Below are positions 5,504 through 64,000 of a stretch of DNA of 64,000 bases, piece by piece; the first letter of the stretch is position 1, and every line of letters begins with the position of its first letter. Source of the DNA: a virus; the IMG/VR virus record IMGVR_UViG_3300025122_000010, positions 1 through 64,000 of that record. One strand, written 5' to 3'. The position numbers and the translations under genes are program-made. Under the pieces are notes generated by a model that saw only the letters and a list, made by a program, of their open reading frames with translations, did no database searches and was not told the DNA's origin.

Positions 5504-5518
5504 TCTATAGGGGGTTTT

Positions 5519-5872: not shown

Positions 5873-5931
5873 ACCAGAATGTTCAGAGAAAAAGAAGATA
5901 GAGAATACATTGAAATAGAGAAAGGTATTGA

Positions 5932-8802: not shown

Positions 8803-9243
8803 TCATTTAGATTTAGCAAAAAAAAGTTGCTAATAAAGTAACATGTGAATATATAAGTTTCAGTACTGTATACTCTTGTGGTCCACCAACGGAATCATTT
8901 ATGAGAGTTGAATGGTTCGAAAGTCCAAGCAAAGGAAGAGTTGGATACAATGTTGAAGAGAAATCAAACGAACTTATATTAACTGAAGTAGCTGGAGAGG
9001 AAGAACCTAGAGTGATAATTTTATGAGAACGGAAATATGGAGTAATAAAGAGATATTAAAATTTCCAGAAACAGTAACATTTATTCTTTCATGTAAAAAT
9101 CATGATAAAATAAGATGGTGTACTAAGTGTGGTTGGTATGAATATATCGGTAATGGAGCATTTTCAAATAAACAAGGGTGCAAAAATAGGTGCGGAACAA
9201 TGCATTACTGGCTCAGAGAAGTTGGAAAGGATGAAGAATTTTT

Positions 9244-10260: not shown

Positions 10261-10269
10261 GGAGAAGCT

Positions 10270-10872: not shown

Positions 10873-10992
10873 TGGAAAAAGATAGTCATATCAACTTAAA
10901 TGATTTATGTGCTAATGTTGGTGCATTAAGAAAAACAATAATTGACTTGTGCATTGCTTTTGTAAGTAGACCTAATGCATCTGGTTATGTAA

Positions 10993-11265
10993 ATGCAACA
11001 ATTAGATAACGATGATACTGTAGTTGGTTGGACTAAAAGGCATAAAATAAAGATAAAACTTCCAAATGGAAGAAATTTTGTCCCTGATTTTTTGATTGAA
11101 TACAAAAACGGCATCTTAGTTTTAGAAGAAACTAAAGGGTGGGATAGATATGCTGACTTGAAGATGCTAGCAATGAAAGAGTATTGTTTAAAAAATGGTT
11201 ATATTTTCAATTGGATCAAACAGAGCGACATGAAAGGGTATAGAGAATGGCTAAAGTGCTTGTAA
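10993..11265 (+). CDS. PD-(D/E)XK nuclease domain (TnsA-N-like), probably N-terminally truncated
   Basis: FVPDFLIEY..LEETKG; no clear SD. Confidence 0.55.
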   Translation: MQQLDNDDTVVGWTKRHKIKIKLPNGRNFVPDFLIEYKNGILVLEETKGWDRYADLKMLAMKEYCLKNGYIFNWIKQSDMKGYREWLKCL

Positions 11266-12323: not shown

Positions 12324-12496
12324 ACACAAACTTCAAATGATAGATAGGAAGATAGGAAGATAGAAAGAATAGGAGTAATGGAACATTGGATATGCAAGAA
12401 CTGTAAACAGCAATTTGCTTCAATAAGAAATAGAACATATAAATCAATTCATCCAGTCCCGGATGATTATAGCTTAAGGAAAGTTAGAGAGATATA

Positions 12497-13510
12497 ATGA
12501 TAGTAATAAAGACCCCGCTTAGAATAGGATTCGCTGGTGGCGGATCAGATTTGCCAGCATATATAGACAAGAAGTATTCTGGGTGGTGTATTAATGCGAC
12601 GATAGATAAATACGTATATGTCTTAGTTAAGAAGAGACATGACAACAAAATCTATTTGAAGTATAGTGAAAATGAAATAGTGGATAATGTTTGTGATATT
12701 AAACATGACTTTATTAGAGAGACCTTGAAGTTCCTTGATATAAACTATGGTGTAGAGATCATCAACTTTGCAGATATACCAACTAAGGGAACAGGCTTGG
12801 GTTCATCATCTAGTTTTCTAGTTGGATTGCTAAATGCATTGCATATACTGAATGGAAATCCAGTTGAGCCGCGTAGACTAGCTGAACAAGCTTGCTATAT
12901 AGAAATTGATAGATGTAATAAACCCATGGGCTATCAAGATCAATTTGCTGCAGCATTTGGTGGGTTAAATATAATGCAATTCAATTTTAATGGTCCAACA
13001 GCAGTTGGTGTGTCCAAACTTGATTATTCAGATCAAGAACTTAGAGATCTATCAGAACACATCATGATGTACTATACTGGTATAACACGAAACTCATCAG
13101 ACATCTTATCAGAACAGTCTGAAAATATGAATACTGATAAATTGCAGGGTATGCATGATAATGTAAGAATAGCACAACAATTGGCAATAGATCTTGCTGA
13201 TAGAAAATTCAATTCAATTTCTAAAGCAATGAACAAGAACTGGATACTTAAGAAGCAATTTGCAAATGAAATTTCAAATGAAAATATTGACAGAATGCTG
13301 GAAGTGGCAATGCATAATGGTGCGCCTGCTGGAAAGGTGACAGGAGCTGGAGGCGGTGGGTTCTTACTATTGTATGTCCATCCTAATAGAAGGGCAGAAG
13401 TTGCTAATGGCATGAGAATAGAATATCCAGATCTAAAGCTTATGCCAGTAAAACTAGATAAATATGGAACTAGAGTTTTGTTGAACACAGAAGAATACCA
13501 ATGGGGGTAA
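12497..13510 (+). CDS. hddA: GHMP kinase, D-glycero-D-manno-heptose 7-phosphate kinase-like
   Basis: PLRIGFAGGGSD, GTGLGSSS, GYQDQ, GAGGGGF. Confidence 0.85.
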   Translation: MIVIKTPLRIGFAGGGSDLPAYIDKKYSGWCINATIDKYVYVLVKKRHDNKIYLKYSENEIVDNVCDIKHDFIRETLKFLDINYGVEIINFADIPTKGTGLGSSSSFLVGLLNALHILNGNPVEPRRLAEQACYIEIDRCNKPMGYQDQFAAAFGGLNIMQFNFNGPTAVGVSKLDYSDQELRDLSEHIMMYYTGITRNSSDILSEQSENMNTDKLQGMHDNVRIAQQLAIDLADRKFNSISKAMNKNWILKKQFANEISNENIDRMLEVAMHNGAPAGKVTGAGGGGFLLLYVHPNRRAEVANGMRIEYPDLKLMPVKLDKYGTRVLLNTEEYQWG

Positions 13511-15443: not shown

Positions 15444-15479
15444 CGAAAACAGCGAATTTGGTTGATAAAGGAGGACTAA

Positions 15480-16346
15480 ATGGCAAAGAGGGAAACAAAG
15501 AAAGTTGTTGATGATGTTGATCCAAGAATTGTAAAATTACATGAAGAAGTTCTTTATCCAGTTGTAAGGGTTCGTGCTGGCAACTCAGGTGGGTCAGGCA
15601 CTGTCCTTTATTCGAAGAAAGATGTAAAAGGGAATGTTAGAACGTTTGTACTCACTAACCACCATGTTGTAGAAGACCTAATCAATATCGGAAAGGTCTG
15701 GAACTCTAGACTTGGTAGAGAGATAAAGAAAGATATTAGACAAACAGCAGAAGCACAATTCTTTAAGTATAACAATTGGTCAAAATGCGTAGGTAGTTTC
15801 TCTGTTGAAGCAGATATTGTTGCCTATGAACCAGAAGAAGATATGGCGTTATTGGAACTAAGAGATAGAGAAAGACTTGCTGATCATATTGCTTGTATGA
15901 TTCCAGAAACAAGAGTTGGTAAAATCTGTATATATGATGATATATATGCTTGCGGTGCTACTCTACTTCATGCTCCATTCTCCACTCCTGGTGCTATTGT
16001 TTTTCAGGATGACGAAATTGAAAACAAGAAATATTGGCTTGGTACTTCTTTGATCTCATTCGGAAATTCAGGTGGTGCTGTGTTTAGATACTGTGAAGAG
16101 TCTGACAAGTATGAATTTATTGGAGTTCCGAGTAGAGTTCAACTTCAAGGATTCAATGATGTTGCTAACTGGATGGGATATTTCATACCCCCTAATAGAG
16201 TTATGGGGTTCTTGAAAGAACAAAAGTTCCAATTCATATTTGATTCCTCAATCACTCTAGAACAATGTGAAGAGCTGAGAAAGAACGATGCAGTTGAAGA
16301 AGTAAAGAGACTAGAAAAGAAAGAGGGTGTTGTCATTGATGAATAA
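15480..16346 (+). CDS. trypsin-like serine protease
   Basis: GSG, LTNHHVV, DMALL, GNSGG catalytic triad motifs. Confidence 0.85.
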   Translation: MAKRETKKVVDDVDPRIVKLHEEVLYPVVRVRAGNSGGSGTVLYSKKDVKGNVRTFVLTNHHVVEDLINIGKVWNSRLGREIKKDIRQTAEAQFFKYNNWSKCVGSFSVEADIVAYEPEEDMALLELRDRERLADHIACMIPETRVGKICIYDDIYACGATLLHAPFSTPGAIVFQDDEIENKKYWLGTSLISFGNSGGAVFRYCEESDKYEFIGVPSRVQLQGFNDVANWMGYFIPPNRVMGFLKEQKFQFIFDSSITLEQCEELRKNDAVEEVKRLEKKEGVVIDE

Positions 16347-46950: not shown

Positions 46951-47250
46951 ATGGACTTAGACGAAAAAATTGAAGCTGCAATAACACTCTTTGCATGTGG
47001 CCGGTATCATCGTATCAAAAGTGTAAAACGTTCTTTATTCAGAAAACATTGTGGAAAAAGATTTCATAAAATTGTTGTAGAATATTCTGGCAAAATGTGT
47101 GTTGAACACTTTAACACTGATCGTAGAAAAGTAATATGGGTATGTGATTGTGAGGAATGTGATTGTATAGCTTATTATAGTATTTGCTACGATGATTTTA
47201 AATTCACATTGTTTTCTTTAAGAGAAAGACTAGAAAAGGTTACAACATGA
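46951..47250 (+). CDS. Cys-rich hypothetical protein
   Basis: ORF coupled to downstream gene. Confidence 0.55.
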   Translation: MDLDEKIEAAITLFACGRYHRIKSVKRSLFRKHCGKRFHKIVVEYSGKMCVEHFNTDRRKVIWVCDCEECDCIAYYSICYDDFKFTLFSLRERLEKVTT

Positions 47251-48422
47251 GACCAGAAGAACTTAGGCCAGCTTTAGGCTTCAACGATATCGGTCTGCTC
47301 CCTGCAGATCGTAGTACTATCACATCTAGAAAGCAAGTAGATCTAACTACGAAAATTTCTAGAAATATTGAAATCAAATATCCTATCATTCTTTCACCTA
47401 TGGACACTGTGTCAAGTGTCAAATCTTGTATAGCATTAAACGAAATAGGAGCAGCAGGCATTCTTCATAGATTCATGACTCCAGAAGAGCAAGCTGAAAA
47501 AGCACTTCAAATTAAGCAATCTCAAGTTGGAGAGGGAGGGCCGCGTTTATATGTAGCTATTGGATTGAATGATTATAAGGAACGTGTGAGAACTTTGCTT
47601 GAAGGGAAGTGTAAATTTGTAGATTTGCTCTTCCTTGATACAGCAAACGGTTCAAATATAAAGGTAGAAGAGTTTATGAAGTGGTGGAACAAAGGTTATA
47701 ATAACGATGGTAGTAGACTATTAGAAGATGAAAATGGTAAGTATTATGCAGTCAGTTCATCACCAGATTTAATCATTGGTAATACATTAACTAAAGCTTC
47801 TGTTGCAAGAGCAATTAATCTAGGAGCTGATGGTGTCAGACATGGAATAGGAGTCGGATCAGCTTGCATCACATCTAGAATGACTGGGATACAATGCCCT
47901 CCAATTACAGCATTGTATTATGGATGGAAAGCAATTCGTAATTGGGAACTAGAACAGATTGACAAGAGTTGCGGTGATGAAAGAGAAGATGTTACTCCTT
48001 CACTTTTGCTAGATGGAGGAATCAAAACTCCAGGCGATTTAGCAAAAGCTATTGCAGCCGGAGCTGATGCAGTTATATCAGGAAGTATATTTGCTGGATG
48101 TAAAGAAACACCTGGAAAAATTATTGATATATTTCCTGATGATAACAGATATGGAATACCAAAGAAATTTAAGAAATACAGAGGTATGGCTTCTAAGGGA
48201 GTCGTGGAAGATTACGACTTATGGGATGGTGAACCTGAAAATCTATTTGTAGAGGGGGAAGAAAGGCTCGTACCATATGAAGGGAAACCTGTTGTTGAAG
48301 TAGTTCATGAGTTTGCAAATGGTCTTAAATCGGCTATGAGCTATCTTGGATATAGAAATCTTTCAGAACTCAAAGGTAGTTTATGGACAGAAGAAACGAT
48401 TGGGATAAAGATGGGAGATTAA
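47247..48422 (+). CDS. IMP dehydrogenase / GMP reductase family (no CBS domains)
   Basis: SPMDTV, GILHRF, GIGVGSACIT, DGGIK, YRGMAS, EGEE. Confidence 0.88.
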   Translation: MRPEELRPALGFNDIGLLPADRSTITSRKQVDLTTKISRNIEIKYPIILSPMDTVSSVKSCIALNEIGAAGILHRFMTPEEQAEKALQIKQSQVGEGGPRLYVAIGLNDYKERVRTLLEGKCKFVDLLFLDTANGSNIKVEEFMKWWNKGYNNDGSRLLEDENGKYYAVSSSPDLIIGNTLTKASVARAINLGADGVRHGIGVGSACITSRMTGIQCPPITALYYGWKAIRNWELEQIDKSCGDEREDVTPSLLLDGGIKTPGDLAKAIAAGADAVISGSIFAGCKETPGKIIDIFPDDNRYGIPKKFKKYRGMASKGVVEDYDLWDGEPENLFVEGEERLVPYEGKPVVEVVHEFANGLKSAMSYLGYRNLSELKGSLWTEETIGIKMGD

Positions 48423-48775
48423 CAGCGATGTGGTTTAAAATATATGCACAGGAATCCTATAAGAGTAAGAAGATGGAGCTAGTTGCTATTGTAAAGAGTG
48501 AAGAGCTTTTAAAGCACGTTAAGTCATATTACGAAGGTCAATACGTTGATGTGAAGGTTGAGAGCTCAGATGAAAACCATGCATGAAGCCAACTTTCGTT
48601 ATCATGATAAATCATGCAATAATTGCAAGCGTATGGATGTCAATGATAATGGGAAAGTGTTTGAGTCAAATTGTAGTATTGTTGGATTGACAAATTTATC
48701 AGTTGATTTATTCAGAGTCATAACTTGGAATGAGTCAAGAGTTTGCGATGAATGGAAGCTAATCTCAGCGAAGTG

Positions 48776-48786
48776 ATATTTATATA
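48776..48786 (+). promoter_or_regulatory. ATATTTATATA motif (candidate late promoter)
   Basis: Intergenic, upstream of beta-barrel gene. Confidence 0.45.
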
Positions 48787-48827
48787 GTACGGTACAAAAC
48801 CTTAAACATAAAAAAAGGGGAGAATAC

Positions 48828-49358
48828 ATGAGAAAGTATATCATGATGTTTGCAGCAATGTTTACATTGCTTTTTGCAGTATCACCTGCAGAAGCTGATA
48901 ACAAAGGCAAGATCGTAACATCAGCAGGTGTTGGTGTAGTAACTGTAGTTGATGAAGAGCTCATTGGTAACTTTGAAGGGATTGATGACAATTTGTATGG
49001 TACGTCTATTGATCTCTATCTCACTAACGCTCAGACCGTTGGAATAAGAGCCGCTATCGCAACGTTCGATAATAAGATGTATGATATTAGTGGGAACTGG
49101 AAGTATCATTTCAGAGCTGATAAGCGATTCGTCCCTTATGCAGGAATTGGATGTGGTATCCAGACTATCGGTTTAGTAACTGACGGAACTAAGGGAACAG
49201 CTTCAATTGCACTTGGTGCTGAATATAGCATATCACCTCGTATTGGTCTCTTCCTAGAGTCTAAGGGTATTACTTCATTCGATAAGAGCACTGATGACAA
49301 GAATGTTCGAACAGTATTTAATCAAGTGATGCTTGGTTTAACTGTTAACGCAAGATAG
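48828..49358 (+). CDS. secreted small outer-membrane beta-barrel protein (OmpA/Ail-like)
   Basis: Signal peptide ending AEA; FVPYAGIGCG; LGAEY; alternating beta strands. Confidence 0.7.
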   Translation: MRKYIMMFAAMFTLLFAVSPAEADNKGKIVTSAGVGVVTVVDEELIGNFEGIDDNLYGTSIDLYLTNAQTVGIRAAIATFDNKMYDISGNWKYHFRADKRFVPYAGIGCGIQTIGLVTDGTKGTASIALGAEYSISPRIGLFLESKGITSFDKSTDDKNVRTVFNQVMLGLTVNAR

Positions 49359-56446: not shown

Positions 56447-56932
56447 ATGAGTAGAATTAATCGGTTAATGGAGGATGTGCAAGAGCTAGCAGATAAAAAT
56501 GATTTTTGCAACATGAAGATCGAATGGGATGAGTTGTTTTCTTCATTTGTGAAACTACTCTCTTATAGAAGTACGTGCGGCTCTGCAAAGAATGCCGCTG
56601 TTTTAGTTAGAGACAACAGGATAGTTTCAATTGGATATAACGGAGCAAAAAGCGGATATACAAATTGTAATAAAGAAAACTTAGAACTAGACTCATCTGG
56701 TAGTTGTTTGAAATGCATACATGCTGAGCAAAATTGCTTAGGATATGCAGCAAGAAATGGGATTGAGACAGAGGGTTGTACTATTTATTGTACTATGACA
56801 CCTTGTCTTTCGTGTGCTAAAATAATGATAGCAGCAGGAATATCAACATACAAATACTTGATACCATATCGTTTGACAGAGGGCGTAGAGTACTTAAAAA
56901 GATATGGAGTGGGGGTTATGAAACTGATATGA
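56447..56932 (+). CDS. dCMP deaminase
   Basis: RSTC, GYNG, HAEQN, PCLSC. Confidence 0.9.
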   Translation: MSRINRLMEDVQELADKNDFCNMKIEWDELFSSFVKLLSYRSTCGSAKNAAVLVRDNRIVSIGYNGAKSGYTNCNKENLELDSSGSCLKCIHAEQNCLGYAARNGIETEGCTIYCTMTPCLSCAKIMIAAGISTYKYLIPYRLTEGVEYLKRYGVGVMKLI

Positions 56933-57939
56933 GTGGAAACCTTATTATTGGTGGAGGTCCTGCTGGACTAACATTTGCTTTTCTAAATCCTGAATTTGTT
57001 GTCTTAGATGCAAACCCAATGAGTCAAATTAAAACTAAGTATAAGCTTGGTCCAAGATTCATTCAAGTCAATCCCGACACTGTAAAATTCTTCAATGAAT
57101 ATACTGATGAGCTTATGTTAACCGACACAGTTCAAGTTGGTGTGAAGAAAATTGGCTATATGAGAGCGGCTGAACTAATAGAAGAAGCTGACGATAATTT
57201 TAAAAGGAGATATTCTTGGTTGACTCGAGGAAAGAAAGATTATGAAGAGAGCTTTCTTTCTGCAGGTAGAAATAAGATAGAGTTCTTTTATTTTTCAAGT
57301 AGTAGTTATATGATTGGTTTCCATCTTGCTTGTGATCAGTTATTTGACAGGATGATGTCTATATTACAGAAGAGATTGCAAATTGTAAAAGTCAATGTAA
57401 GAGCTATCAGCCCATTTAATAGCTTTATAAAATTAGAATGTAGTGGTAATGAATATGATGCAATCCCTCACAACTATGGAAGACTGGTTAGCACTCTTGA
57501 TATCAGAAAATTTGCAAGAATGACAGAAAGGCAAGCTTGGAAGCTTGGTATGGTTGACAACTTAGGCTTCACTCCAGCATTTAAAGTTAAGGAAAAACAT
57601 TTTTATGTGACAGGGTGTAGTGAAGAAGATAAAAGATTAGATGCTGCTAATTTTGCTTATGTGTATTCTGTTGATGGTGTATACACTAGGAAAACAATAC
57701 ACTATCCGTTCTACACAGTGTATGAAACTACTGATAAGTTACCGAATTTCCAGAAGTTCATAATGGGCAATCGAATAGTAGATAGATATGAAGACTTACC
57801 AATTCAAATAGAAGATAGCATGAATATAACTAAGTTAGGGAATATTCAAATGCTGGGAAGGTATGCACAGTGGAATCACTCTATTAGATTTGACACTTTG
57901 TTTAAAGAATTTAGAAGAATTAGGAGGTTTTATGGATAA
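56929..57939 (+). CDS. FAD-binding protein, UDP-galactopyranose mutase-like superfamily
   Basis: IIGGGPAGL; C-terminal LGRYAQWNH. Confidence 0.65.
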   Translation: MSGNLIIGGGPAGLTFAFLNPEFVVLDANPMSQIKTKYKLGPRFIQVNPDTVKFFNEYTDELMLTDTVQVGVKKIGYMRAAELIEEADDNFKRRYSWLTRGKKDYEESFLSAGRNKIEFFYFSSSSYMIGFHLACDQLFDRMMSILQKRLQIVKVNVRAISPFNSFIKLECSGNEYDAIPHNYGRLVSTLDIRKFARMTERQAWKLGMVDNLGFTPAFKVKEKHFYVTGCSEEDKRLDAANFAYVYSVDGVYTRKTIHYPFYTVYETTDKLPNFQKFIMGNRIVDRYEDLPIQIEDSMNITKLGNIQMLGRYAQWNHSIRFDTLFKEFRRIRRFYG

Positions 57940-58912
57940 GCTTGAACATATGTTTGAGACTCAAAAAGAGTTTGAAGATCACTTCTTCAGAAAAACATTT
58001 GGAGTTTCATTAGAAGAGTTCATGGAATCAGATAAAAATAAATTAGCTTGGAATAAAGAGTTTATTTTGTGTCTTATGAAAGAATCATCTGAGTTACTAG
58101 ACAACTTGAATTGGAAGCATCATACTGACTTGAATGTAGAGCAGTCTAAAGATAACTTCATTGAGAACTCTGTTGATTTGATGAAGTATCTTTTTGCTCT
58201 TCTTGCAATAAATGGTGTGAATGCTAATGAGTTGTTCAAAAAATTTGTTTCTAAATCAGTTGTTGTAAAAGCCAAATTCGAACAAAAGCTTTTGCTAGAA
58301 CAATTGAAGAAAGATAAAGATCGTAAAATTGCTGTAGTTGATATTGATGGAGTGTTGTCTGATTATCCAGATAGTTTTCTAGCTTCAACTCCATACTTGC
58401 AGAAATTCACTAATATTCAAGATGCAGTTTGCAATGATTATCCTCTATACAATGTTGCTAAAAAGCATTATAGAACAAGTGGGGTAAAAGCTAGCATTGA
58501 AATAAGAGAGGGTGCAAAAGAACTTTTAGATTATCTCAAAGATTGTGGGTATTTCGTCATACTACTAACTGCAAGACCATATGATAAGGTAAGCAGAATC
58601 TATCAAGACACATTGTATTGGCTTGACAAGAATAAATTGAAATATGATGCTATAATTTGGGAGAAAGAAAAAGCTAAGTATGCAATAAAGCATTTTAAAG
58701 AGAACAATGTAGTATTTTGCATTGATGACGAGGTGAAGCAAGTTAATAAATTAAGCTCAGAATTCAAAACATATTTTGTCACAAATGAGAAGCTGTATAG
58801 AAGTAGAGAACAGATGTTGGCAATGATCGGTTATTCATTGATAAACACTAATAATATAGTGTTATGTGACAATATGTGCGATGTTCTTCATGAAGTGAAA
58901 AAAGGAGAATAA
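57932..58912 (+). CDS. all-alpha dUTPase/MazG-like domain fused to HAD phosphatase
   Basis: MFETQKEF..E..ELLD..WKHH..E..D; VDIDGVL, LTARP, IDDE; ATG at 57932 after AGGAGG. Confidence 0.75.
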   Translation: MDKLEHMFETQKEFEDHFFRKTFGVSLEEFMESDKNKLAWNKEFILCLMKESSELLDNLNWKHHTDLNVEQSKDNFIENSVDLMKYLFALLAINGVNANELFKKFVSKSVVVKAKFEQKLLLEQLKKDKDRKIAVVDIDGVLSDYPDSFLASTPYLQKFTNIQDAVCNDYPLYNVAKKHYRTSGVKASIEIREGAKELLDYLKDCGYFVILLTARPYDKVSRIYQDTLYWLDKNKLKYDAIIWEKEKAKYAIKHFKENNVVFCIDDEVKQVNKLSSEFKTYFVTNEKLYRSREQMLAMIGYSLINTNNIVLCDNMCDVLHEVKKGE

Positions 58913-58914
58913 AA

Positions 58915-59313
58915 ATGCATCAATTGTCAGTATGCATCTATGAGTTTCCAGCAGCAACATATGACATCCAACATTGGAAAACGAGATTTAAAGACAAAAT
59001 AGCTTATATTGCAGATGCAGCTGAACTTACTGGTGACCCTAATGTTTATTATTTTCAAATGAAGGGTAGAAAAGTAAATGGTGGTTATGTTGGAGAAACT
59101 GTATATTGTATACCTCATTATAGATTACATGATGTTATGTTACGCGATCCGATAGTAGAGATATTCGATGCTAGTATTACAATTAACTCTGTTTTTAAAT
59201 TAATATTAGTGGGAAGTTTTGACACAAGTATGTTACATAAAATCCTAGTACTAACTGACCAACTCAAATCAATGGGAATGAGGGATCTAAAAGATGAGCA
59301 AAAGAGAGATTGA
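58915..59313 (+). CDS. hypothetical protein
   Basis: ORF in operon. Confidence 0.55.
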   Translation: MHQLSVCIYEFPAATYDIQHWKTRFKDKIAYIADAAELTGDPNVYYFQMKGRKVNGGYVGETVYCIPHYRLHDVMLRDPIVEIFDASITINSVFKLILVGSFDTSMLHKILVLTDQLKSMGMRDLKDEQKRD

Positions 59314-59872
59314 CAAAGCAATTGTAGAATGTGAGAGTTGCGAACTCCATATGTTGGAAGCAAATGACAATTCTTTGCAAGAAGAAAATGGTTACGGGAA
59401 ACTGGTGGGCAAGGAAGGGAGACAATCTAATGACATAATGATTGTAGGGCTAAATCCTTCAGGTGCTAGATTTGAAGGTCTAAAGCATCCATTTGATGCT
59501 AATATGAGTAGCACAGTCTATAATGCTGGCACTGGTTTTATGAAGATGTTGAGACACATAGGTATTTATGACCATTGTTACGTAACAAATCTAGTAAAGT
59601 GTTCAACATTCGATAACACTGTAAGTAATGATGATTTCAATAATTGCAAAAAACACTTTGAGCTAGAATTAGAATATGCTAAACCCAAGCTTATACTGGC
59701 TTGTGGTAACCAAGTTTATGAATTCTTGACTACGTATTATAATAACACAGAGGCTAGTATAAAGAAGATATATCATCCTAGCTATTGTTTGAGCTATAAT
59801 AGAATCAATGAAGATCAATATCTAAAACATATAGCTAATATCGTCGTTGAATTTGCTGAAAAGGGGAAATAA
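59294..59872 (+). CDS. uracil-DNA glycosylase family 4/5-like protein
   Basis: CESCEL, IVGLNPS, TNLVKC, YHPS. Confidence 0.8.
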   Translation: MSKREIDKAIVECESCELHMLEANDNSLQEENGYGKLVGKEGRQSNDIMIVGLNPSGARFEGLKHPFDANMSSTVYNAGTGFMKMLRHIGIYDHCYVTNLVKCSTFDNTVSNDDFNNCKKHFELELEYAKPKLILACGNQVYEFLTTYYNNTEASIKKIYHPSYCLSYNRINEDQYLKHIANIVVEFAEKGK

Positions 59873-60904
59873 ATGATTAACGTATTTGTCACAGGTGAAG
59901 AGGGAACTATACCAAGAGCAATGAGAGTTATACCTAGTAATTGTCATATTGTAAATGGGGGTTACTTGAAATATGAACATTGGAAAACTCACCAAAGTTT
60001 TCAAGCTCGTCGGCGAGAAATCGATTTTTTAAACAGAGAACTACTCTTTGATTTGTTTTCCAAACACAGTGACGAAATTGATGTTGTGATTCATTCCGGT
60101 GCTTATGTAGGCACTGATTTTTGCGATAGCGATAGTGTAAAAGCAATTGAAACCAATAACATCGGAACTCAAAACATCATCGATATTTGCAATAATTTTA
60201 AGAAACCCTTGGTTCTTATTTCAACAACTGCTATTTTCGATCCCAGTAAGTATAGCTCATCTTCTCCGATAGATGAAAACACACTAATCAATCCACAAAC
60301 ACTATATGGAGTAACAAAATACTTTTCAGAATTACAAGTAGAAAGACAGATAAAGGGAAAGTATTTTATACTAAGGCCTGTCTTTGGTTTTGGTGACTAT
60401 CCAGACGATCTACATAGTGCATTGACTAAAGTTATTTATACTCTATATAAGAACTATACAGGGACCGAACAAACACTTGAACTTAAATTAGCACCATTCA
60501 ATCAAAAGTCTTATATTAGAGTAGAGAATATAGCAAATGTAATTTTGAAATTTGCTGAACGTATTATGGAACCCAAGGGACATTTTTTTAAGCACTATAA
60601 TATTGGCAAAAATTATTCATATGCAAGAGATTGGCATGAGATGATTGATGTTGTAGCTAATTGTTTTGGAAACTATGAAGCCCCGGACCACCCGGGTCAT
60701 TCAATAGATGCAGATGTAATAATGGAGACGTTTAAAAGACAAATAATTTTTGATGCAGATGCTGACTATTTGGGTTGGCATAATATTAATGATAGCTCAA
60801 TATCAAGACTTAAAATAGAACAACTTATTTCTTTTGAAGAGGGTGTTCGAAAGACTGTAAATAGCGTAATACAAAACATTAACGTGGAGCCTTATTGGAT
60901 ATGA
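59873..60904 (+). CDS. NAD-dependent nucleotide-sugar epimerase/reductase (SDR)
   Basis: TGEEGTI, ISTTAIF, YGVTK, LRP. Confidence 0.8.
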   Translation: MINVFVTGEEGTIPRAMRVIPSNCHIVNGGYLKYEHWKTHQSFQARRREIDFLNRELLFDLFSKHSDEIDVVIHSGAYVGTDFCDSDSVKAIETNNIGTQNIIDICNNFKKPLVLISTTAIFDPSKYSSSSPIDENTLINPQTLYGVTKYFSELQVERQIKGKYFILRPVFGFGDYPDDLHSALTKVIYTLYKNYTGTEQTLELKLAPFNQKSYIRVENIANVILKFAERIMEPKGHFFKHYNIGKNYSYARDWHEMIDVVANCFGNYEAPDHPGHSIDADVIMETFKRQIIFDADADYLGWHNINDSSISRLKIEQLISFEEGVRKTVNSVIQNINVEPYWI

Positions 60905-61335
60905 TGATATTTTTTTCAGGACCGGATTGTAGTGGTAAAGACACTGTGATGCATGAAGTTGCACATTTATCAGAATACAAATATTACATGAGCCCTAGAT
61001 CACCGATATGTAATATTGTGTATGATGTTATATTTGATAGAAACATCGATTTATTTGAATCGAATATGAAAACTATAGCTGGACTACTTCCATTAGATGC
61101 ATACTTTGTGTTAGTTATTGCTGATGTTGAAGTTCTAGTAAATAGGGCAATTAGTAGAGGTGAGCAACATGTGATATCAGAAAAGGATTTTGAAAAGCAT
61201 TTGAGAATATACAAAGATGTTTTTGAAATGGTTAGCAATACTTACATACAGTATGCTGATAGGTTCCTTATTATTGATAACTCAGGTGATTTGGAGAAGA
61301 CAGCTAAAACACTAAAGGTTAACCTATGCTTATAA
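60895..61335 (+). CDS. thymidylate-kinase-like dNMP kinase
   Basis: P-loop GPDCSGKDT, RSP, IIDNS. Confidence 0.75.
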   Translation: MDMMIFFSGPDCSGKDTVMHEVAHLSEYKYYMSPRSPICNIVYDVIFDRNIDLFESNMKTIAGLLPLDAYFVLVIADVEVLVNRAISRGEQHVISEKDFEKHLRIYKDVFEMVSNTYIQYADRFLIIDNSGDLEKTAKTLKVNLCL

Positions 61336-62198
61336 ATAAGTGGACTTTAAACTCAGTTCCATTTCGGGTTCCATTTGTAGGTGAGAAGTTAGGGTATTTT
61401 GACTACAATGAGTGTGTTAGAGTGTTTTCAACTTACGATGAATTAGAAAACTTGAGTAAAATTGGAAACTGCTCAACAGACGAAGCAGTTGATAGAGTCA
61501 AATTTGGTGATGTATATGATTCACATGCTCTAACATTTTTCTTGTATAACTTTTCTGCACTCCAAGTTATAGAAAACCATTATGGTAAAGTATCAGATAG
61601 TGTAATGCTTGAACTAGGTTGTAATAATGGATATGTCTCTAGATTGCTACAAAGGAATGGTTTTAAGATCAAAGAATATTGGGGTGTAGATTTTGATTTA
61701 CAGTTTTGCATAGAAGGGTTAAGGAATTTTGGTAGTTCTGATCAGATATTTGGAAGCAATTTCATGTCAGGTGATATTAATAAGCCTTTGATGTTTAAAG
61801 AGGCATCATTTGATTTAGTATTTATGCAAGAAGCATTCGACCATTGCAAAGATAGATTCTTTTATGCTGAGCAATGTTTAAGTGAGATCAAAAGAGTGTT
61901 AAAACCAGATGGACATGCATATATAACATTGGTGTTTGAACATGAACACAGAGACCTCTATCATTGGGATCACAACTATGTTTGGAAAAAGCATGAGTTT
62001 GAAAATGTTGTTAGTGATTATTTCGACATTGTTAATTTTAATCCCTTGATGACATTTGATGAAGTTGTCAAGTCTAACACTTTCGATTCTTGGAAAGTTC
62101 GAAAAAACTGGCCCCATAAATTAGCTAAAATGTTTTGTGCAGGTTTTGTAGACGAGAAAGATACTGCTGTAGGGGCATATATGCTAAGGAGTAAGTGA
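61326..62198 (+). CDS. class I SAM methyltransferase
   Basis: LELGCNNG, GVDF, SFDLVF, EIKRVLKPDG. Confidence 0.85.
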   Translation: MLINKWTLNSVPFRVPFVGEKLGYFDYNECVRVFSTYDELENLSKIGNCSTDEAVDRVKFGDVYDSHALTFFLYNFSALQVIENHYGKVSDSVMLELGCNNGYVSRLLQRNGFKIKEYWGVDFDLQFCIEGLRNFGSSDQIFGSNFMSGDINKPLMFKEASFDLVFMQEAFDHCKDRFFYAEQCLSEIKRVLKPDGHAYITLVFEHEHRDLYHWDHNYVWKKHEFENVVSDYFDIVNFNPLMTFDEVVKSNTFDSWKVRKNWPHKLAKMFCAGFVDEKDTAVGAYMLRSK

Positions 62199-62713
62199 TG
62201 CTAAATATGTTAATAAAAGATTGGAAAAACAGAATAGACAAACAATTTGAAGCTGGATTGTGGGTTGATGGTATTTCAGGTACTTATGAATTGACAAACT
62301 TTGAATATTCTATTTTACCAGTATTAGATAGTCTAGTTGAAGCACCAAATAGAGAAGAAATTATTGAAAGAAATTTTGTAATTGAAAGATCGAAATTAGT
62401 AGCAAATTATTTGCTTGATGACATGAATTCGAGACGTGCTTCATTTGTAAATAACTATGATGGAGAAGACAATCATTGTATTTCATATTTCCATCATTAT
62501 ATAAGAGATAATAGTCACCCTAGTCATTGCATGAACGTGTATGTAAGAAGCATGAATTACGATACAAACTTTGTGTTTGACAACCAGACATTTTGTTTGG
62601 CATATTGGGCAATTCATAATTTACTTACGCTTAAATATGTATTAGAACCAACTACGTATAGTTATATAAGAGTTTTTGTATTTTCACTACACAAATTTAA
62701 GGAAAATCAATGA
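62195..62713 (+). CDS. short thymidylate-synthase-fold protein (dCMP-modifying type)
   Basis: SRRA, HCISYFHHYIR, VYVRSMN..FVFD, SLH. Confidence 0.7.
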   Translation: MMLNMLIKDWKNRIDKQFEAGLWVDGISGTYELTNFEYSILPVLDSLVEAPNREEIIERNFVIERSKLVANYLLDDMNSRRASFVNNYDGEDNHCISYFHHYIRDNSHPSHCMNVYVRSMNYDTNFVFDNQTFCLAYWAIHNLLTLKYVLEPTTYSYIRVFVFSLHKFKENQ

Positions 62714-64000
62714 AGCTAAAATACAAAAATGGAAGTAAGTTTGACACATACATTCCTCTACATGGACATAGCACTTATAGTTTGGGAGATGGTGTAGCTC
62801 GTCTTTCTGATATTGTAAGTAAAACTAAGGAGATAGGAGCTAATGCTGTAGGTCTAACTGAGCATGGGAATATGCTTTCATTTTTCAAGTTCTATAATGA
62901 AGCAAAAGCCAATGATGTAATTCCTATAATTGGTGTTGAGCTTTATGTGAATGACTTATTCTATGATGACAAAGAAGCATTCTTGAAAGCAAAGAGAAGC
63001 AAGGGTGATGAAGATGAAAATGAGCTTGAGTTAGATGCAGCAACAGATACAAGCAATGCACACTTTGTTGTTTACTGCAAGAACTTGAAGGGTATGCATA
63101 ATCTTATTCACTTGTCTAACATTGGTTTCTTTAATTTCTACAGGAAGCCCCTGGTTAAACTTGACATGATGTTTGAGCACCTGGATGAAAACAACATTGT
63201 AACAACAGGTTGTGTAAACTCACCATTCAACAAACTCATATTGCTAGGTAAGTTGGATGAAGCTGAAAAACTATTGAAGAGATTCAAGAAACATTTCAAG
63301 GATGATTTTTACTTTGAGATTCAAGCAAATGGAATGGAAGAGCAAAAGATTGTAAATGATTTCTATGAAGAGGCACATACTAGACATAATGTCAAACCTG
63401 TATTTGCTCTTGACTACCATTATGCAAATAAGGAAGATTATTATATCCAGTATTTGAGTTTTCTAATCAAGAACAGACATACTGTAGAATCAATGCCACT
63501 TGAAGATTGGTTTTATACTGTAAGAAACTTGCACATCAAAGACATTGACGAAGTATATGAAGTTGCAAGTGATATCAATATTAATTTCTTGGAGCTAGCT
63601 CTTAACTCAACATTTGAAATAAGAGACAAGATAGAAATTGATATTCCAACATATCCAAATAATTATCCAAAGTATACTGAAAGTGACAGTGAAACAGATA
63701 AGTTGTTCCTTGAAGTTTTCACAAAGAAGTATAAAGAAAAGATCGATTCAGGAGTTATTCCGAAAGATCGTATCAAAGAATATGATGAAGTGATTGAAAA
63801 GGAAATACAGATTTTTAAGAAGAAAGACTTCATCAACTATCTAATGATTATATCAGATATATTAGATGGTTTTGTATATGCTTCTGGTGGTTCGACAGGA
63901 GCAGGTCGAGGTAGTGCAGCTGGGTCACTAATATTGTTTATAATGGATGTGACAAAGATTGATCCTGTGAAGCATGATCTCATGTTTGAGAGATTCCTGA
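62710..64000 (+). CDS. dnaE: DNA polymerase III alpha subunit (family C), 3'-truncated by window edge
   Basis: Not in ORF track; ATG at 62710; PHP motifs LHGHSTYSLGDG, LTEHGN, IIGVELY, DYHY; GAGRGSAAGSL; MFERF. Confidence 0.92.
   Translation, partial: MKLKYKNGSKFDTYIPLHGHSTYSLGDGVARLSDIVSKTKEIGANAVGLTEHGNMLSFFKFYNEAKANDVIPIIGVELYVNDLFYDDKEAFLKAKRSKGDEDENELELDAATDTSNAHFVVYCKNLKGMHNLIHLSNIGFFNFYRKPLVKLDMMFEHLDENNIVTTGCVNSPFNKLILLGKLDEAEKLLKRFKKHFKDDFYFEIQANGMEEQKIVNDFYEEAHTRHNVKPVFALDYHYANKEDYYIQYLSFLIKNRHTVESMPLEDWFYTVRNLHIKDIDEVYEVASDININFLELALNSTFEIRDKIEIDIPTYPNNYPKYTESDSETDKLFLEVFTKKYKEKIDSGVIPKDRIKEYDEVIEKEIQIFKKKDFINYLMIISDILDGFVYASGGSTGAGRGSAAGSLILFIMDVTKIDPVKHDLMFERFL

What the first reader, a model, noticed from the sequence alone, without database searches (positions are those of the whole stretch)
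56447..64000. Candidate sugar-linked DNA base-modification operon coupled to DnaE
Seen: tightly coupled genes for dCMP deaminase, a mutase-like flavoprotein, a dUTPase/MazG-HAD fusion, a hypothetical, a UDG-like protein, an NDP-sugar SDR, a dNMP kinase, a SAM methyltransferase, a TS-fold protein and DnaE. ThyX elsewhere already supplies dTMP. Known: a TS-fold enzyme plus dedicated dNMP kinase plus dNTP pyrophosphatase is the signature of pre-replicative pyrimidine replacement (T4 hmC, SPO1 hmU). RB69-type phages add sugar enzymes to make arabinosylated cytosine. Inference: a modified pyrimidine carrying a furanose and possibly methylated sugar, incorporated by a family C polymerase. I do not recognise this combination.
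Basis: partly seen in the sequence, partly recalled or inferred. Interest (0 to 1): 0.8.

Follow-up and report, generated by a model that had tools for sequence, protein, structure and literature searches.

The report
Phage cytosine-modification genes around DnaE
An uncultured large phage packs, right before its DNA polymerase gene, a conserved set of nucleotide enzymes built around a stripped-down thymidylate-synthase relative tuned to cytosine, so it probably puts an altered cytosine into its DNA, but a sugar on that base is not shown.

Summary
All ten genes are present, co-oriented and abutting or overlapping. The 172-aa "TS-fold" ORF is a true minimal thymidylate-synthase homologue. It keeps the catalytic Cys and has Asp at the dCMP-specificity site. 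It also has Asn at the position reported in 2026 as diagnostic for flavin/O2-dependent 5-hydroxy-dCMP synthases (RB69 gp48 type).

Synteny is strong. Among 15 metagenome loci with enough flank, kinase and SDR accompany the mini-TS in 15/15 and the methyltransferase in 11/15. DnaE follows in 14/14.

The "mutase-like flavoprotein" belongs to a large virus-only family. Its best solved relatives are UDP-galactopyranose mutases, but it is gene-linked, and once fused, to dCMP deaminase.

The most likely reading is pre-replicative replacement of dC by a C5-modified dC, probably 5-hydroxy-dC, possibly tailored further by the small-molecule-type methyltransferase and SDR.

The sugar or furanose reading is not shown:
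- No module copy contains a glycosyltransferase.
- Two near-complete relatives lack the glycosyltransferase families tested.
- GTAC and CATG are the two most avoided 4-mers in the genome.

This scan has already met the same module on other DNA. I rate it a new variant of a known kind.

The parts
56447..56932 (+). dCMP deaminase (161 aa)
   Evidence: Pfam dCMP_cyt_deam_1 4.8e-21; PHROG 174 5.4e-41. It overlaps the next gene by 4 nt. It was found near the module in 3 of 5 viral loci and 6 of 14 metagenome loci with 4 kb or more downstream.
56929..57939 (+). FAD protein of a virus-only family, UGM-like fold (336 aa)
   Evidence: No Pfam, PHROG or NCBIfam hit. The family has 432 representatives at E<=1e-3. 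AF2 pLDDT is 76. VIA-align top hits are UDP-galactopyranose mutases at Z 17.2, tied with protoporphyrinogen oxidase at Z 16.8. A 51-sequence profile hits UGMs first (E 1e-6), and R254 and Y246 align to the AfUGM Arg and Tyr that I count as R327 and Y317. One of 51 family members is fused to a dCMP deaminase.
57863..58912 (+). Fusion of an all-alpha NTP pyrophosphatase (dimeric dUTPase/MazG-like) with a HAD phosphatase (349 aa)
   Evidence: NCBIfam dUTPase NF049964 1.4e-6 (residues 25-142); PHROG 415 1.2e-13 and Pfam NT5C 0.0015 (residues 148-305); all are below curated cut-offs. The HAD DxD and DD motifs are visible in the sequence. It follows the flavoprotein in all 10 viral loci that hold the flavoprotein, abutting or overlapping it in 8.
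58915..59313 (+). Hypothetical protein (132 aa), weakly conserved
   Evidence: No family hit. tblastn relatives were found only in L012, L034 and a short stretch of L008/L045.
59294..59872 (+). UDG-superfamily protein, family-4-like with a variant motif A
   Evidence: Pfam UDG 1e-16; NCBIfam type-4 UDG 4.5e-12 (below cut-off); PDB 4zbx 7e-6. The sequence reads GLNPS where family 4 has GE(A/G)PG (motif recalled); HPS is kept. Found in 5/5 viral loci and 10/15 metagenome loci. The L004 copy carries an intein.
59873..60904 (+). Extended SDR, RmlD-like (343 aa)
   Evidence: Pfam RmlD_sub_bind 1.8e-19 (70 bits, cut-off 27). NCBIfam rmlD 61 bits against a cut-off of 224. Best PDB hits are dTDP-4-dehydrorhamnose reductases, 1.8e-10. 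YxxxK is present. It accompanies the mini-TS in 15/15 assessable metagenome loci and is the gene directly upstream in 7 of 23.
60895..61335 (+). Small P-loop nucleotide kinase, YorR/Tmk-like (146 aa)
   Evidence: PHROG 761 3.1e-11. The best PDB sequence hit is YorR (2axp/3kb2), 1.5e-3. BLASTP to the RB69 ORF045c kinase gives 1e-4 over the GPD..GK P-loop only. It accompanies the mini-TS in 15/15 loci.
61326..62198 (+). Class I SAM methyltransferase of the small-molecule type (290 aa)
   Evidence: Pfam Methyltransf_11 1.5e-16. The best NCBIfam and PDB hits are BioC, UbiE and sterol-type methyltransferases; none passes an equivalog cut-off. It is directly upstream of the mini-TS in 15 of 23 loci and present in 11/15. 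L008 has an unrelated Methyltransf_24 gene in the same place.
62195..62713 (+). Minimal thymidylate-synthase-fold enzyme (172 aa), candidate dCMP C5-modifying enzyme
   Evidence: AF2 pLDDT 93.7. Foldseek: T4 dCMP hydroxymethylase 6e-8, TS, MilA, AfhB 9iqu 3.3e-6. HMM and hhalign alignments give C94=C146, R117/S118=R166/S167, N120=D169, D128=N177 and D91 near L143; the RSMN motif matches RSQN in RB69 gp48. Conservation in 36 sequences: C94 36/36, D128 36/36, N120 25/36. Homodimer model scores 0.58 against a best control of 0.01.
62710..64000 (+). DnaE (family C polymerase alpha subunit); runs off the window and is 1104 aa in the record (to base 66024)
   Evidence: Pfam PHP 2.2e-36 and DNA_pol3_alpha 3e-20; PHROG 405 2.5e-93. 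It lies downstream of the mini-TS in 14/14 metagenome loci with 4 kb or more of flank. Beyond the window, in record coordinates: ThyX-like 66036-66875, a second ThyX-fold paralogue 66872-67558, and a MazG-like gene 67551-67937.

Best explanation
This is a conserved, replication-linked pyrimidine-nucleotide remodelling module of uncultured large DnaE-type phages. Its most likely function is to replace dC in phage DNA with a C5-modified dC made at the mononucleotide level.

Proposed steps (all inferred):
1. The NTP-pyrophosphatase domain, and the second MazG-like gene after DnaE, turn dCTP/dUTP into monophosphates.
2. The dimeric mini-TS attacks C6 of dCMP with its Cys and installs a C5 substituent. 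This is most likely a hydroxyl group, by the flavin/O2 chemistry shown for RB69 gp48 and HY126 AfhB. In the RS.D subclade it could be hydroxymethyl or methyl.
3. The small-molecule-type methyltransferase and the RmlD-like SDR, which always travel with the mini-TS, tailor or support this step. They could O-methylate the product to a 5-methoxy form, or supply NAD(P)H-derived reducing power to an enzyme that lost about 58 N-terminal residues.
4. The YorR-like kinase phosphorylates the modified dNMP.
5. DnaE incorporates it.

The dCMP deaminase, the UGM-like flavoprotein, the HAD phosphatase, the ThyX-like paralogues and the UDG-like protein belong to a wider core that also occurs without the mini-TS. 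They probably manage dUMP/dTMP flux and uracil-type lesions.

What is shown: fold, residues, dimer likeness and synteny. What is inferred: substrate, product, cofactor and every pathway step.
For: - TS fold with high confidence.
- Catalytic Cys invariant, and Asp invariant at the N177 (dCMP-specificity) position, each 36/36.
- The RS.N motif and an acidic residue before the Cys align to the experimentally verified 5hodCMP synthase RB69 gp48 (hhalign E 2.6e-4). The meaning of these residues is taken from PMC13326640, sections 24 and 28.
- Like RB69 gp48, the protein ends a few residues after the S.H motif.
- TS-type dimer in which R79/R80 reach the partner's C94/R117/S118 (score 0.58, best of 3 controls 0.01; the mark was reached by 20 of 30 solved pairs and 1 of 23 single chains; runs agree in at least 94% of contacts; partner pLDDT at least 85). 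This may reflect memory of solved TS dimers.
- A canonical ThyX elsewhere already covers dTMP.
- Kinase and SDR accompany the mini-TS in 15/15 loci, the methyltransferase in 11/15 and DnaE in 14/14. One relative has a non-orthologous methyltransferase in the same slot.
- The kinase's best solved relative is YorR, the same top hit reported for the kinase next to the TS homologue in DLP3 (Table 1).
- The methyltransferase is of the small-molecule class, not a DNA methyltransferase family.
Against: - There is no chemistry. No virion DNA, no cultured relative (tblastn of the mini-TS, kinase, ThyX-like gene, flavoprotein and a second flavoprotein-family member against 50,697 phage records gave nothing useful).
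- The 'diagnostic' Asn is not fixed in the family. Asp occurs in 11/36 aligned proteins, and in 8 of the 35 of 38 loci where the motif was found. Those loci have the same neighbours.
- Sequence-only similarity to TS is weak (E 0.23 to 1.5). The mini-TS lacks about 58 N-terminal residues relative to RB69 gp48, so cofactor binding is unproven.
- SDR, flavoprotein, kinase, UDG and ThyX-like genes also occur around DnaE in loci where no mini-TS was found. Those records are only 19-63% complete.
- GTAC (O/E 0.58) and CATG (O/E 0.73), both containing C, are the two most under-represented of 136 4-mers. This looks like restriction avoidance and argues against a bulky, fully protective cytosine modification.
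- B. subtilis SPbeta also combines a DnaE-like polymerase with YorR and a nucleotidase and has no known hypermodification (recalled).
Confidence: 0.5

Rival explanations
1. Sugar-linked base. 5-hydroxy- or 5-hydroxymethyl-cytosine in DNA is glycosylated with a 6-deoxyhexofuranose. The sugar is made by the RmlD-like reductase plus the UGM-like mutase, possibly O-methylated by the methyltransferase, and transferred by a glycosyltransferase encoded elsewhere, for example the GT1-family gene at 9244-10260 next to ThyX.
For: - The SDR's best solved relatives are dTDP-4-dehydrorhamnose reductases (1.8e-10).
- The flavoprotein family profile hits UGMs first (E 1e-6) and keeps the residues that I count as AfUGM R327 and Y317. 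VIA-align's top hit is UGM at Z 17.2.
- A reductase plus UGM-like mutase pair makes dTDP-fucofuranose in E. coli O52 (Fcf1/Fcf2, recalled).
- RL38JI, a 5-hydroxycytosine phage, encodes a UGM.
- The window holds a sugar cluster at 1-14 kb with a true RmlD, two dehydratase/epimerases, a GHMP kinase and GT1, GT2 and GT9 genes. The GT1 gene abuts ThyX.
- The SDR is syntenic with the mini-TS in 15/15 loci.
Against: - No glycosyltransferase or nucleotidyltransferase is present in the module in any of the roughly 44 loci examined.
- PF00483 is absent from 5/5 records. The 91%-complete record with the module has no PF00534, PF00535 or PF13692 hit. The 89%-complete one has no GT1-type hit.
- The UGM match ties with protoporphyrinogen oxidase by Z (16.8). 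No member hits Pfam GLF, and the nearest cellular clusters are amine oxidases.
- The flavoprotein is fused once to dCMP deaminase and always precedes the dNTPase-phosphatase.
- GTAC and CATG are avoided.
Confidence: 0.2
2. No DNA modification. The block is a nucleotide-pool and repair module for a fast-replicating AT-rich phage. It covers dUMP/dTMP supply, dUTP/dCTP sanitation, uracil excision and dNMP phosphorylation. The mini-TS serves a pool function or a regulatory role, for example as a dCMP-binding or sequestering subunit or a dCMP methylase of minor flux.
For: - Most components are ordinary nucleotide-metabolism families.
- The wider core occurs in loci with no detected mini-TS.
- RNR, DnaB and a 5'-3' exonuclease lie directly upstream.
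- The restriction-avoidance-like 4-mer signal suggests cleavable DNA.
- SPbeta offers a parallel (recalled).
Against: - A TS homologue with an invariant catalytic Cys and an invariant Asp at the cytosine-specificity site has no role in canonical dNTP synthesis. All characterised enzymes with this Asp that I know of make C5-modified cytidylates, of which PMC13326640 names T4 gp42, MilA and RB69 gp48 (BcmA is recalled).
- The constant companionship of an SDR and a small-molecule methyltransferase is not explained.
Confidence: 0.2
3. The module makes a free pyrimidine antimetabolite or signalling nucleotide, as in bacimethrin biosynthesis. There a TS homologue, a glycosidase, an O-methyltransferase and a kinase work together. 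The product would poison or reprogramme the host rather than enter DNA.
For: A mini-TS, a small-molecule-type methyltransferase, a kinase and an N-glycosylase-fold protein are clustered. The BcmABCD analogy is recalled and was not tested.
Against: - The glycosylase here has a DNA-glycosylase (UDG) fold, not a nucleotide N-glycosidase fold.
- The module is embedded in replication genes and abuts DnaE in 14/14 loci.
- A dedicated kinase of the type found beside TS homologues in DNA-modifying phages is present.
Confidence: 0.05

Closest known systems
Glycosylated 5-hydroxycytosine pathways of RB69 (gp45-55), DLP3 (gp76-83), RL38JI and HY126 Afh (Lee et al., NAR 2026, PMC13326640; He et al., Nat Chem Biol 2026, seen only as a citation)
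   Same: - A TS-superfamily enzyme with the catalytic Cys, Asp at N177, Asn at D169 and an acidic residue near L143.
- The protein ends shortly after the S.H motif.
- A YorR/Tmk-like kinase lies one gene away from the TS homologue.
- A MazG-type dNTP pyrophosphatase and a HAD phosphatase are present.
- The cluster lies next to the DNA polymerase gene.
- RL38JI also encodes a UGM.

   Different: - The enzyme is 171-172 aa against 217-238 aa.
- The slot between kinase and TS homologue holds a methyltransferase instead of a glycosyltransferase.
- There are no sugar-activation genes in the module.
- An RmlD-like SDR is obligatory.
- UDG-like and ThyX-like genes are present.
- The polymerase is family C, not family B.
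- Asn at D169 is not fixed in the family (25/36).
- No close sequence relative exists in any of 50,697 deposited phage records.
T4 dCMP hydroxymethylase system (gp42, gp1 kinase, gp56 dCTPase, Cd deaminase)
   Same: It follows the same logic of dCTPase plus a TS-fold dCMP enzyme plus a kinase plus dCMP deaminase. T4 gp42 is the top Foldseek hit (6e-8) and shares the specificity Asp.
   Different: T4 gp42 is 246 aa, folate-dependent and keeps Asp at position 169. The T4 glucosyltransferases have no counterpart here.
UDP-galactopyranose mutase (A. fumigatus 3uka/3ute, T. cruzi 4dsg/4dsh)
   Same: The fold is the best-scoring one (Z 17.2, rmsd 4.4, 306 residues aligned). The family profile scores E 1e-6. 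The FAD GxGxxG motif and the residues that I count as AfUGM R327 and Y317 are kept.
   Different: The protein is 336 aa against 465-517 aa. There is no Pfam GLF hit. The family is virus-only. Its gene neighbours are nucleotide enzymes, and one member is fused to dCMP deaminase.
hmU-DNA phages of Bacillus (SPO1/phi-e type), recalled: dCMP deaminase, dUMP hydroxymethylase, dTTPase-dUTPase, dTMP nucleotidase and hmdUMP kinase
   Same: Both combine a deaminase, a pyrophosphatase, a nucleotidase, a TS-fold enzyme and a kinase.
   Different: The specificity residue here is Asp (cytosine). A canonical ThyX is kept, so thymine replacement is unlikely.
Flavin-dependent thymidylate synthase ThyX (Pfam Thy1)
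   Same: The two genes after DnaE have the ThyX fold. K scores Thy1 28 bits. L is 31% identical to a 325-aa viral ThyX-like protein that scores 1.3e-13.
   Different: K reads DHH where ThyX has RHR, and L lacks the later S..R element (reading of the sequences against the window's own ThyX). L also has a Cys-rich C-terminal tail. A canonical ThyX is present separately.

Membership tests
Thymidylate synthase (ThyA) superfamily | TS alpha/beta fold | tested here: met
   AF2 pLDDT 93.7. 374 PDB chains match at Foldseek E<=1e-3. All of the listed top matches (about 40 rows) are TS, dCMP hydroxymethylase, MilA or AfhB.
Thymidylate synthase (ThyA) superfamily | Catalytic Cys (E. coli C146) and the R166/S167 phosphate site | tested here: met
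   C94, R117 and S118 align to them and are 36/36 conserved.
Thymidylate synthase (ThyA) superfamily | Obligate homodimer with Arg residues donated to the partner's active site | tested here: met
   Model score 0.58 against a best control of 0.01. R79/R80 contact the partner's C94/R117/S118. The pass may come from likeness to solved TS dimers.
Thymidylate synthase (ThyA) superfamily | Significant sequence-profile match to TS | tested here: inconclusive
   No Pfam or NCBIfam hit. The profile against PDB gives TS or dCH as 17 of the 18 listed hits, the top 15 included, but at E 0.23-1.5.
5-hydroxy-dCMP synthases (RB69 gp48 / DLP3 gp80 / AfhB) | Asn at the D169 position (stated as diagnostic in PMC13326640) | tested here: met
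   N120 in this protein reads RSMN, against RSQN in RB69 gp48. In the family it is 25/36 Asn and 11/36 Asp.
5-hydroxy-dCMP synthases (RB69 gp48 / DLP3 gp80 / AfhB) | Asp at N177 and an acidic residue at L143 | tested here: met
   D128 is 36/36. D91 is 33/36 and aligns to the Glu of RB69 gp48.
5-hydroxy-dCMP synthases (RB69 gp48 / DLP3 gp80 / AfhB) | Bound flavin and O2-dependent hydroxylation of dCMP | not testable with these tools
   This needs purified protein or the in vivo assay. About 58 N-terminal residues present in gp48 are absent here.
UDP-galactopyranose mutase (GLF) | FAD Rossmann motif and UGM fold | tested here: met
   GGGPAG N-terminus. Z 17.2 to 4dsh, though within 1 Z of protoporphyrinogen oxidase.
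UDP-galactopyranose mutase (GLF) | Family-level sequence membership (Pfam GLF) | tested here: not met
   No Pfam hit for the protein. Of 51 family members, 6 hit only NAD_binding_8 and none hits GLF. The family profile does reach UGMs at E 1e-6.
UDP-galactopyranose mutase (GLF) | Substrate diphosphate-binding Arg/Tyr (AfUGM R327, Y317) | tested here: met
   R254 and Y246 are invariant in 51 sequences and align to the AfUGM Arg and Tyr that I identify as R327 and Y317 by counting residues in the printed alignment, allowing a one-residue offset. Other UGM active-site residues were not aligned.
Uracil-DNA glycosylase family 4 | UDG superfamily domain | tested here: met
   Pfam UDG 61.7 bits against a cut-off of 24.3.
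Uracil-DNA glycosylase family 4 | Motif A GE(A/G)PG and equivalog-level score | tested here: not met
   The sequence reads GLNPS (the motif definition is recalled). NCBIfam scores are 45.8 against 250 and 41.9 against 125.
dTDP-4-dehydrorhamnose reductase (RmlD) | RmlD substrate-binding domain and the Y-x3-K catalytic pair | tested here: met
   Pfam 70.3 bits against a cut-off of 27. YGVTK is present. The best PDB hits are RmlD.
dTDP-4-dehydrorhamnose reductase (RmlD) | Equivalog score (same function) | tested here: not met
   TIGR01214 scores 61 bits against a cut-off of 224. A genuine RmlD (Pfam 2.6e-62) sits elsewhere, at 1994-2962.
dNMP/thymidylate kinase | P-loop and kinase family match | tested here: inconclusive
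   PHROG 761 3.1e-11. There is no Pfam hit. NCBIfam Tmk and Cmk hits are at E 0.003-0.004, far below cut-off. YorR scores 1.5e-3.
DnaE (family C polymerase alpha) | PHP domain plus the pol III alpha core | tested here: met
   PHP 126 bits and DNA_pol3_alpha 73 bits in the 430 aa inside the window. The ORF is 1104 aa in the record.

The most novel reading that the evidence does not exclude
The phage DNA carries a cytosine derivative not yet described in nature. It would be built on 5-hydroxy-dCMP made by a 171-aa minimal TS-fold hydroxylase that relies on trans-acting partners (the always-adjacent RmlD-like SDR and/or the virus-only UGM-like flavoprotein) for cofactor reduction. The product would then be O-methylated at the nucleotide level to 5-methoxy-dC, or in some lineages capped with a deoxyhexofuranose, before a family C polymerase incorporates it. 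A full-text search found no natural 5-methoxycytosine DNA in print.
Probability: 0.22. Interest if true: 0.85.

Novelty: new variant of a known kind. Interest (0 to 1): 0.6.

Why it matters
TS-fold enzymes that hydroxylate dCMP were described only in 2025-2026, and only in cultured T4-like and Rhizobium phages.

This module would extend that chemistry to a widespread group of uncultured large DnaE-type phages from freshwater, sediment, sludge and marine samples. It does so with a much smaller enzyme and a different set of tailoring genes: a methyltransferase and an SDR instead of glycosyltransferases.

If the product is confirmed, it would add a new natural DNA base and a minimal scaffold for enzymatic C5 functionalisation of cytidylates. 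It would also assign a function to two large virus-only protein families, the UGM-like flavoprotein and the long ThyX-like proteins.

If it is refuted, it would show that the Asp/Asn active-site signature is not sufficient to predict modified DNA.

Tried and rejected
- blastn of the whole region and tblastn of the mini-TS, kinase, ThyX-like K, flavoprotein B, the L004 ThyX-like protein and a distant B relative against 50,697 phage records gave nothing usable. The only hits were one weak kinase hit and ordinary ThyX genes of Bacillus and Alicyclobacillus phages. An earlier scan note links the module to actinophage clusters; I could not reproduce that link.
- Single-sequence PDB searches for B and the mini-TS found nothing. 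The shallow B profile (7 sequences) hit only primases by chance. Only the 51-sequence profile reached UGMs.
- A 'longer' search for fused forms of the mini-TS found none, which is weak evidence. The kinase-mini-TS fusions reported by earlier notes were therefore not confirmed here.
- I searched for the mini-TS in the records of five mini-TS-less loci and found none, but those records are only 19-63% complete.
- I considered thymine replacement of the SPO1 type and rejected it as the main reading. The specificity residue is Asp and a canonical ThyX is present.
- I considered post-replicative thymidine hypermodification of the 5-HMUDK/aGPT-Pplase type, for which I saw only the abstract and outline of PMC11472151. 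No such families were detected.
- The correlation of Asn or Asp at position 169 with methyltransferase presence is not informative. The counts are N with MTase 14, N without 13, D with 7, D without 1 and no motif 3. Many of the 'without' cases are truncated loci.
- Supplementary files of PMC13326640 are closed. They may list the nine IMG/VR TS homologues that were assayed, so I cannot say whether a mini-TS of this family has already been tested.
- He et al. 2026 was not in the library.

Full report
**What is there.** The window is the first 64 kb of an 84,102-bp IMG/VR virus record that CheckV rates 31% complete. From 56447 to the window end, ten + strand ORFs abut or overlap. Family scans confirm these:
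- a dCMP deaminase;
- a UDG-superfamily protein;
- an RmlD/epimerase-type SDR;
- a class I SAM methyltransferase;
- a small P-loop kinase (PHROG 'thymidylate kinase');
- a fusion of an all-alpha dUTPase/MazG-like domain with a HAD phosphatase (weak scores, below curated cut-offs);
- the N-terminal 430 residues of a DnaE that is 1104 aa in the full record.

Three ORFs had no family hit: the 336-aa 'flavoprotein', a 132-aa ORF and the 172-aa 'TS-fold' ORF. Upstream lie a class II RNR, DnaB and a 5'-3' exonuclease. A canonical ThyX is at 10270-10872. Just after DnaE, outside the window, lie a divergent ThyX-like gene, a 228-aa gene and a second MazG-like gene.

**The TS-fold claim.**
- The 172-aa protein has 49 homologues of 127-196 aa, all without annotation.
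- An AlphaFold2 model from 36 of them has pLDDT 93.7.
- Foldseek gives T4 dCMP hydroxymethylase (6e-8), many thymidylate synthases, MilA and the HY126 dCMP hydroxylase AfhB (9iqu, 3.3e-6).
- The family profile aligns to E. coli TS and T4 gp42 only weakly (E 0.23-0.5), but it is in register over the active site: C94 on C146, R117/S118 on R166/S167, N120 on D169 and D128 on N177.
- hhalign against RB69 gp48, fetched from the RB69 record, gives E 2.6e-4. It aligns SRR, the acidic residue before the Cys, the Cys itself, and RSMN with RSQN.
- In the 36-sequence alignment C94, R117, S118 and D128 are invariant, D91 is 33/36, and N120 is Asn in 25 and Asp in 11.
- A homodimer model passes its controls: score 0.58, best of 3 controls 0.01; the mark was reached by 20 of 30 solved pairs and 1 of 23 single chains; the runs agree in at least 94% of contacts; pLDDT is at least 85. 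R79/R80 reach the partner's C94/R117/S118, as in TS. This may be memory of solved TS dimers.

**What the residues mean.** I read the abstract and sections 19, 24, 25, 27, 28 and 29 of Lee et al., NAR 2026 (PMC13326640). The paper makes these points:
- RB69 gp48, DLP3 gp80 and other TS homologues make 5-hydroxy-dCMP from dCMP with O2 and a flavin.
- Asp at N177 marks dCMP use.
- An acidic residue at L143 marks a non-methyl product.
- Asn at D169 is proposed as diagnostic. Nine diverse D169N homologues all produced 5-hydroxy-dC in vivo.

The mini-TS of this window carries all three residues. Like gp48, it ends a few residues after the S.H motif, but it is about 58 residues shorter at the N-terminus. 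Because Asp replaces Asn in a subclade with the same neighbours, the product may differ between lineages, or the marker may be less strict in this family.

**Synteny.**
- Five IMG/VR contigs of 27-424 kb hold the mini-TS. Of these, 5/5 have the SDR, 5/5 the kinase, 5/5 the UDG, 4/5 the methyltransferase, 4/5 the flavoprotein and the pyrophosphatase-HAD fusion, and 4/5 the ThyX-like gene. DnaE is present in 4/5; the fifth locus ends 1 kb after the mini-TS.
- The fifth contig without the orthologous methyltransferase has an unrelated Methyltransf_24 gene directly upstream of the mini-TS.
- A metagenome scan gave 33 loci, two of which are the same contigs as viral loci. One (L050) gave no tblastn match in my script.
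- Of 15 loci with 3 kb or more upstream, the counts are kinase 15, SDR 15, methyltransferase 11, UDG 10, pyrophosphatase-HAD 12 and flavoprotein 9. The misses for the last two are mostly loci too short to reach them.
- Of 14 loci with 4 kb or more downstream, DnaE is present in 14.
- In 23 loci with 1 kb or more upstream, the gene directly upstream of the mini-TS is the methyltransferase in 15, the SDR in 7 and neither in 1.
- Extra ORFs in relatives are GIY-YIG homing endonucleases and, in the UDG gene of L004, an intein.

A second scan seeded with the flavoprotein gave 8 loci. Two were contigs already seen, and I analysed the other six. Two of those six are near-identical. The flavoprotein is followed by the pyrophosphatase-HAD fusion in 6/6. 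SDR, kinase, UDG, DnaE and ThyX-like genes are usually present, but a mini-TS appears in only 1/6 and the methyltransferase in 0/6. The mini-TS was not found anywhere in five of those records, which are 19-63% complete. So there is a wider core around DnaE, and a tighter SDR-kinase-(methyltransferase)-mini-TS unit within it.

**The flavoprotein.**
- It has only six close homologues, but a profile search finds 432 representatives at E<=1e-3.
- The ESM Atlas lists 17 virus-only clusters as nearest. The closest cellular clusters are Amino_oxidase families of about 340 aa.
- My model (pLDDT 76) matches the amine-oxidase/PPO/UGM fold class. By VIA-align the top hits are UGMs (Z 17.2, rmsd 4.4, 306 aligned, 15-17% identity), tied with protoporphyrinogen oxidase (Z 16.8).
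- A 51-sequence profile hits UGMs first in the PDB (11 sequences at about 1e-6). The match is over the substrate domain, not the Rossmann motif. The invariant R254 and Y246 align to an Arg and a Tyr of AfUGM that, by my count of the printed alignment with a one-residue offset, are R327 and Y317, both the subject of mutant structures.
- No member hits Pfam GLF. One of the 51 members is a fusion with a C-terminal dCMP deaminase.
- In this window the deaminase gene overlaps the flavoprotein gene by 4 nt. In several relatives a ThyX-family gene sits just upstream of it.

I therefore call it UGM-like by descent. The homology evidence points to an NDP-sugar-type pocket, and the genomic evidence points to pyrimidine nucleotides. 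These are left as competing readings.

**Other parts.**
- The SDR's best solved relatives are RmlD reductases (1.8e-10), and it keeps YxxxK. It fails the RmlD equivalog cut-off, and a genuine RmlD lies elsewhere in the window.
- The kinase's best solved relative is YorR (1.5e-3), the same structure named as top hit for DLP3 gp78, the kinase beside that phage's TS homologue. It shares a GPD..GK P-loop with RB69 ORF045c.
- The methyltransferase resembles small-molecule methyltransferases, not DNA methyltransferases.
- The UDG-like protein is family-4-like but reads GLNPS in motif A.
- The 228-aa gene after the ThyX-like gene is itself ThyX-fold. It is 31% identical (2e-29) to a 325-aa viral ThyX-like protein that passes Pfam Thy1. 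The Atlas places K among viral Thy1 clusters.

**Sugar question.** The window's first 14 kb is a sugar cluster. It holds:
- a GT9-methyltransferase fusion;
- a true RmlD;
- two dehydratase/epimerases;
- a cupin;
- GT2;
- GT1 abutting ThyX;
- a GHMP kinase.

This keeps DNA glycosylation possible for this phage. However, no module copy contains a glycosyltransferase. PF00483 nucleotidyltransferases are absent from all 5 records searched. The 91%-complete relative has no PF00534, PF00535 or PF13692 hit, and the 89%-complete one has none of the GT1 type. In the two large relatives the glycosyltransferase domains sit in 1265-1293-aa multi-domain proteins.

**A signal against bulky protection.** With a maximal-order Markov expectation on both strands of the 84-kb record, GTAC (102 observed, 177 expected) and CATG (261 observed, 359 expected) are the two most under-represented of the 136 distinct 4-mers. 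This looks like restriction-site avoidance at C-containing sites. It fits a small modification or none better than a bulky glycan, but it is indirect.

**Literature.**
- Full-text searches for 'dCMP hydroxylase', 'HY126', '5-hydroxycytosine + phage + thymidylate synthase + flavin', 'arabinofuranosylation' and 5-methoxycytosine/-cytidine terms found the 2026 NAR paper and citing work.
- They found nothing on a minimal TS of this kind, on this gene set, or on natural 5-methoxycytosine DNA.
- Supplements were closed and He et al. 2026 is not in the library.

**Earlier notes of this scan.** Look-ups show that the same kind of module was met on other genomes. Follow-up agents reached similar readings: a minimal TS with the 5-hydroxy-dCMP signature, and a sugar not supported. 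One note describes a ThyX-like enzyme with an obligatory flavoprotein partner. I treated these notes as leads. I re-derived the residue signature, the synteny and a restriction-signal test on this genome. I could not reproduce the reported kinase-mini-TS fusions or the actinophage link.

**Verdict.**
- The best reading (confidence 0.5) is pre-replicative replacement of dC by a C5-modified dC, most likely built on 5-hydroxy-dCMP, with nucleotide-level tailoring.
- The sugar-linked version is a live but weaker rival (0.2), as is a no-modification nucleotide-pool reading (0.2).
- It is a new variant of a recently described kind of system.
- It is widespread in uncultured large phages and directly testable with a published assay.

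Noticed in passing
window 49-13510: A large sugar cluster sits far from the module. It holds a GT9-domain plus methyltransferase fusion (49-1215), a genuine RmlD (1994-2962, Pfam 2.6e-62), a cupin (3233-3838), dehydratase/epimerases (4040-5176, 11247-12323), GT2 (5932-7497), a GT1 gene (9244-10260) ending 10 nt before the canonical ThyX (10270-10872), and a GHMP kinase (12497-13510). Whether it serves DNA, virion or host glycans is open.
   Followed up: partly
record 66036-67558 (L003:2036-3558), just beyond the window: Two adjacent ThyX-fold paralogues follow DnaE. One reads DHH in place of RHR. The other keeps R.R but lacks the later S..R element and has a Cys-rich C-terminal tail. Some relatives (L004, L006) have a single 325-332-aa gene similar to both. 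The complementary losses suggest a hetero-oligomer.
   Followed up: partly
protein P0153 (413 aa, metagenomic): This is a natural fusion of a flavoprotein-family domain with a C-terminal dCMP deaminase. It is 1 of 51 family members scanned.
   Followed up: partly
L004:5707-7413; L004:2237-2977; L007:10559-11323 and 15478-16074: The UDG-like gene of one relative is interrupted by an intein with a DUF559/Vsr-type endonuclease. GIY-YIG/NUMOD3 homing endonucleases are inserted between module genes in relatives.
   Followed up: no
whole record (84,102 bp): GTAC (O/E 0.58, z -6.7) and CATG (O/E 0.73, z -6.5) are the two most under-represented 4-mers of 136. GATC is also low (0.86).
   Followed up: yes
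L008:9325-9933: In the most divergent module copy, a Methyltransf_24-type gene unrelated to the window's methyltransferase sits directly upstream of the mini-TS. This is a possible non-orthologous replacement.
   Followed up: partly
window 47247-49358: An IMPDH/GMP-reductase-family gene (5.3e-63) and an outer-membrane beta-barrel protein gene (OMP_b-brl 5.1e-9) lie upstream of the replication genes.
   Followed up: no
record 70027-77675 (L003:6027-13675): Downstream of the module lie a DUF559/Vsr-like endonuclease, an HD-domain protein, a DnaG-type zinc-ribbon protein and a 1059-aa calcineurin-like phosphoesterase.
   Followed up: no
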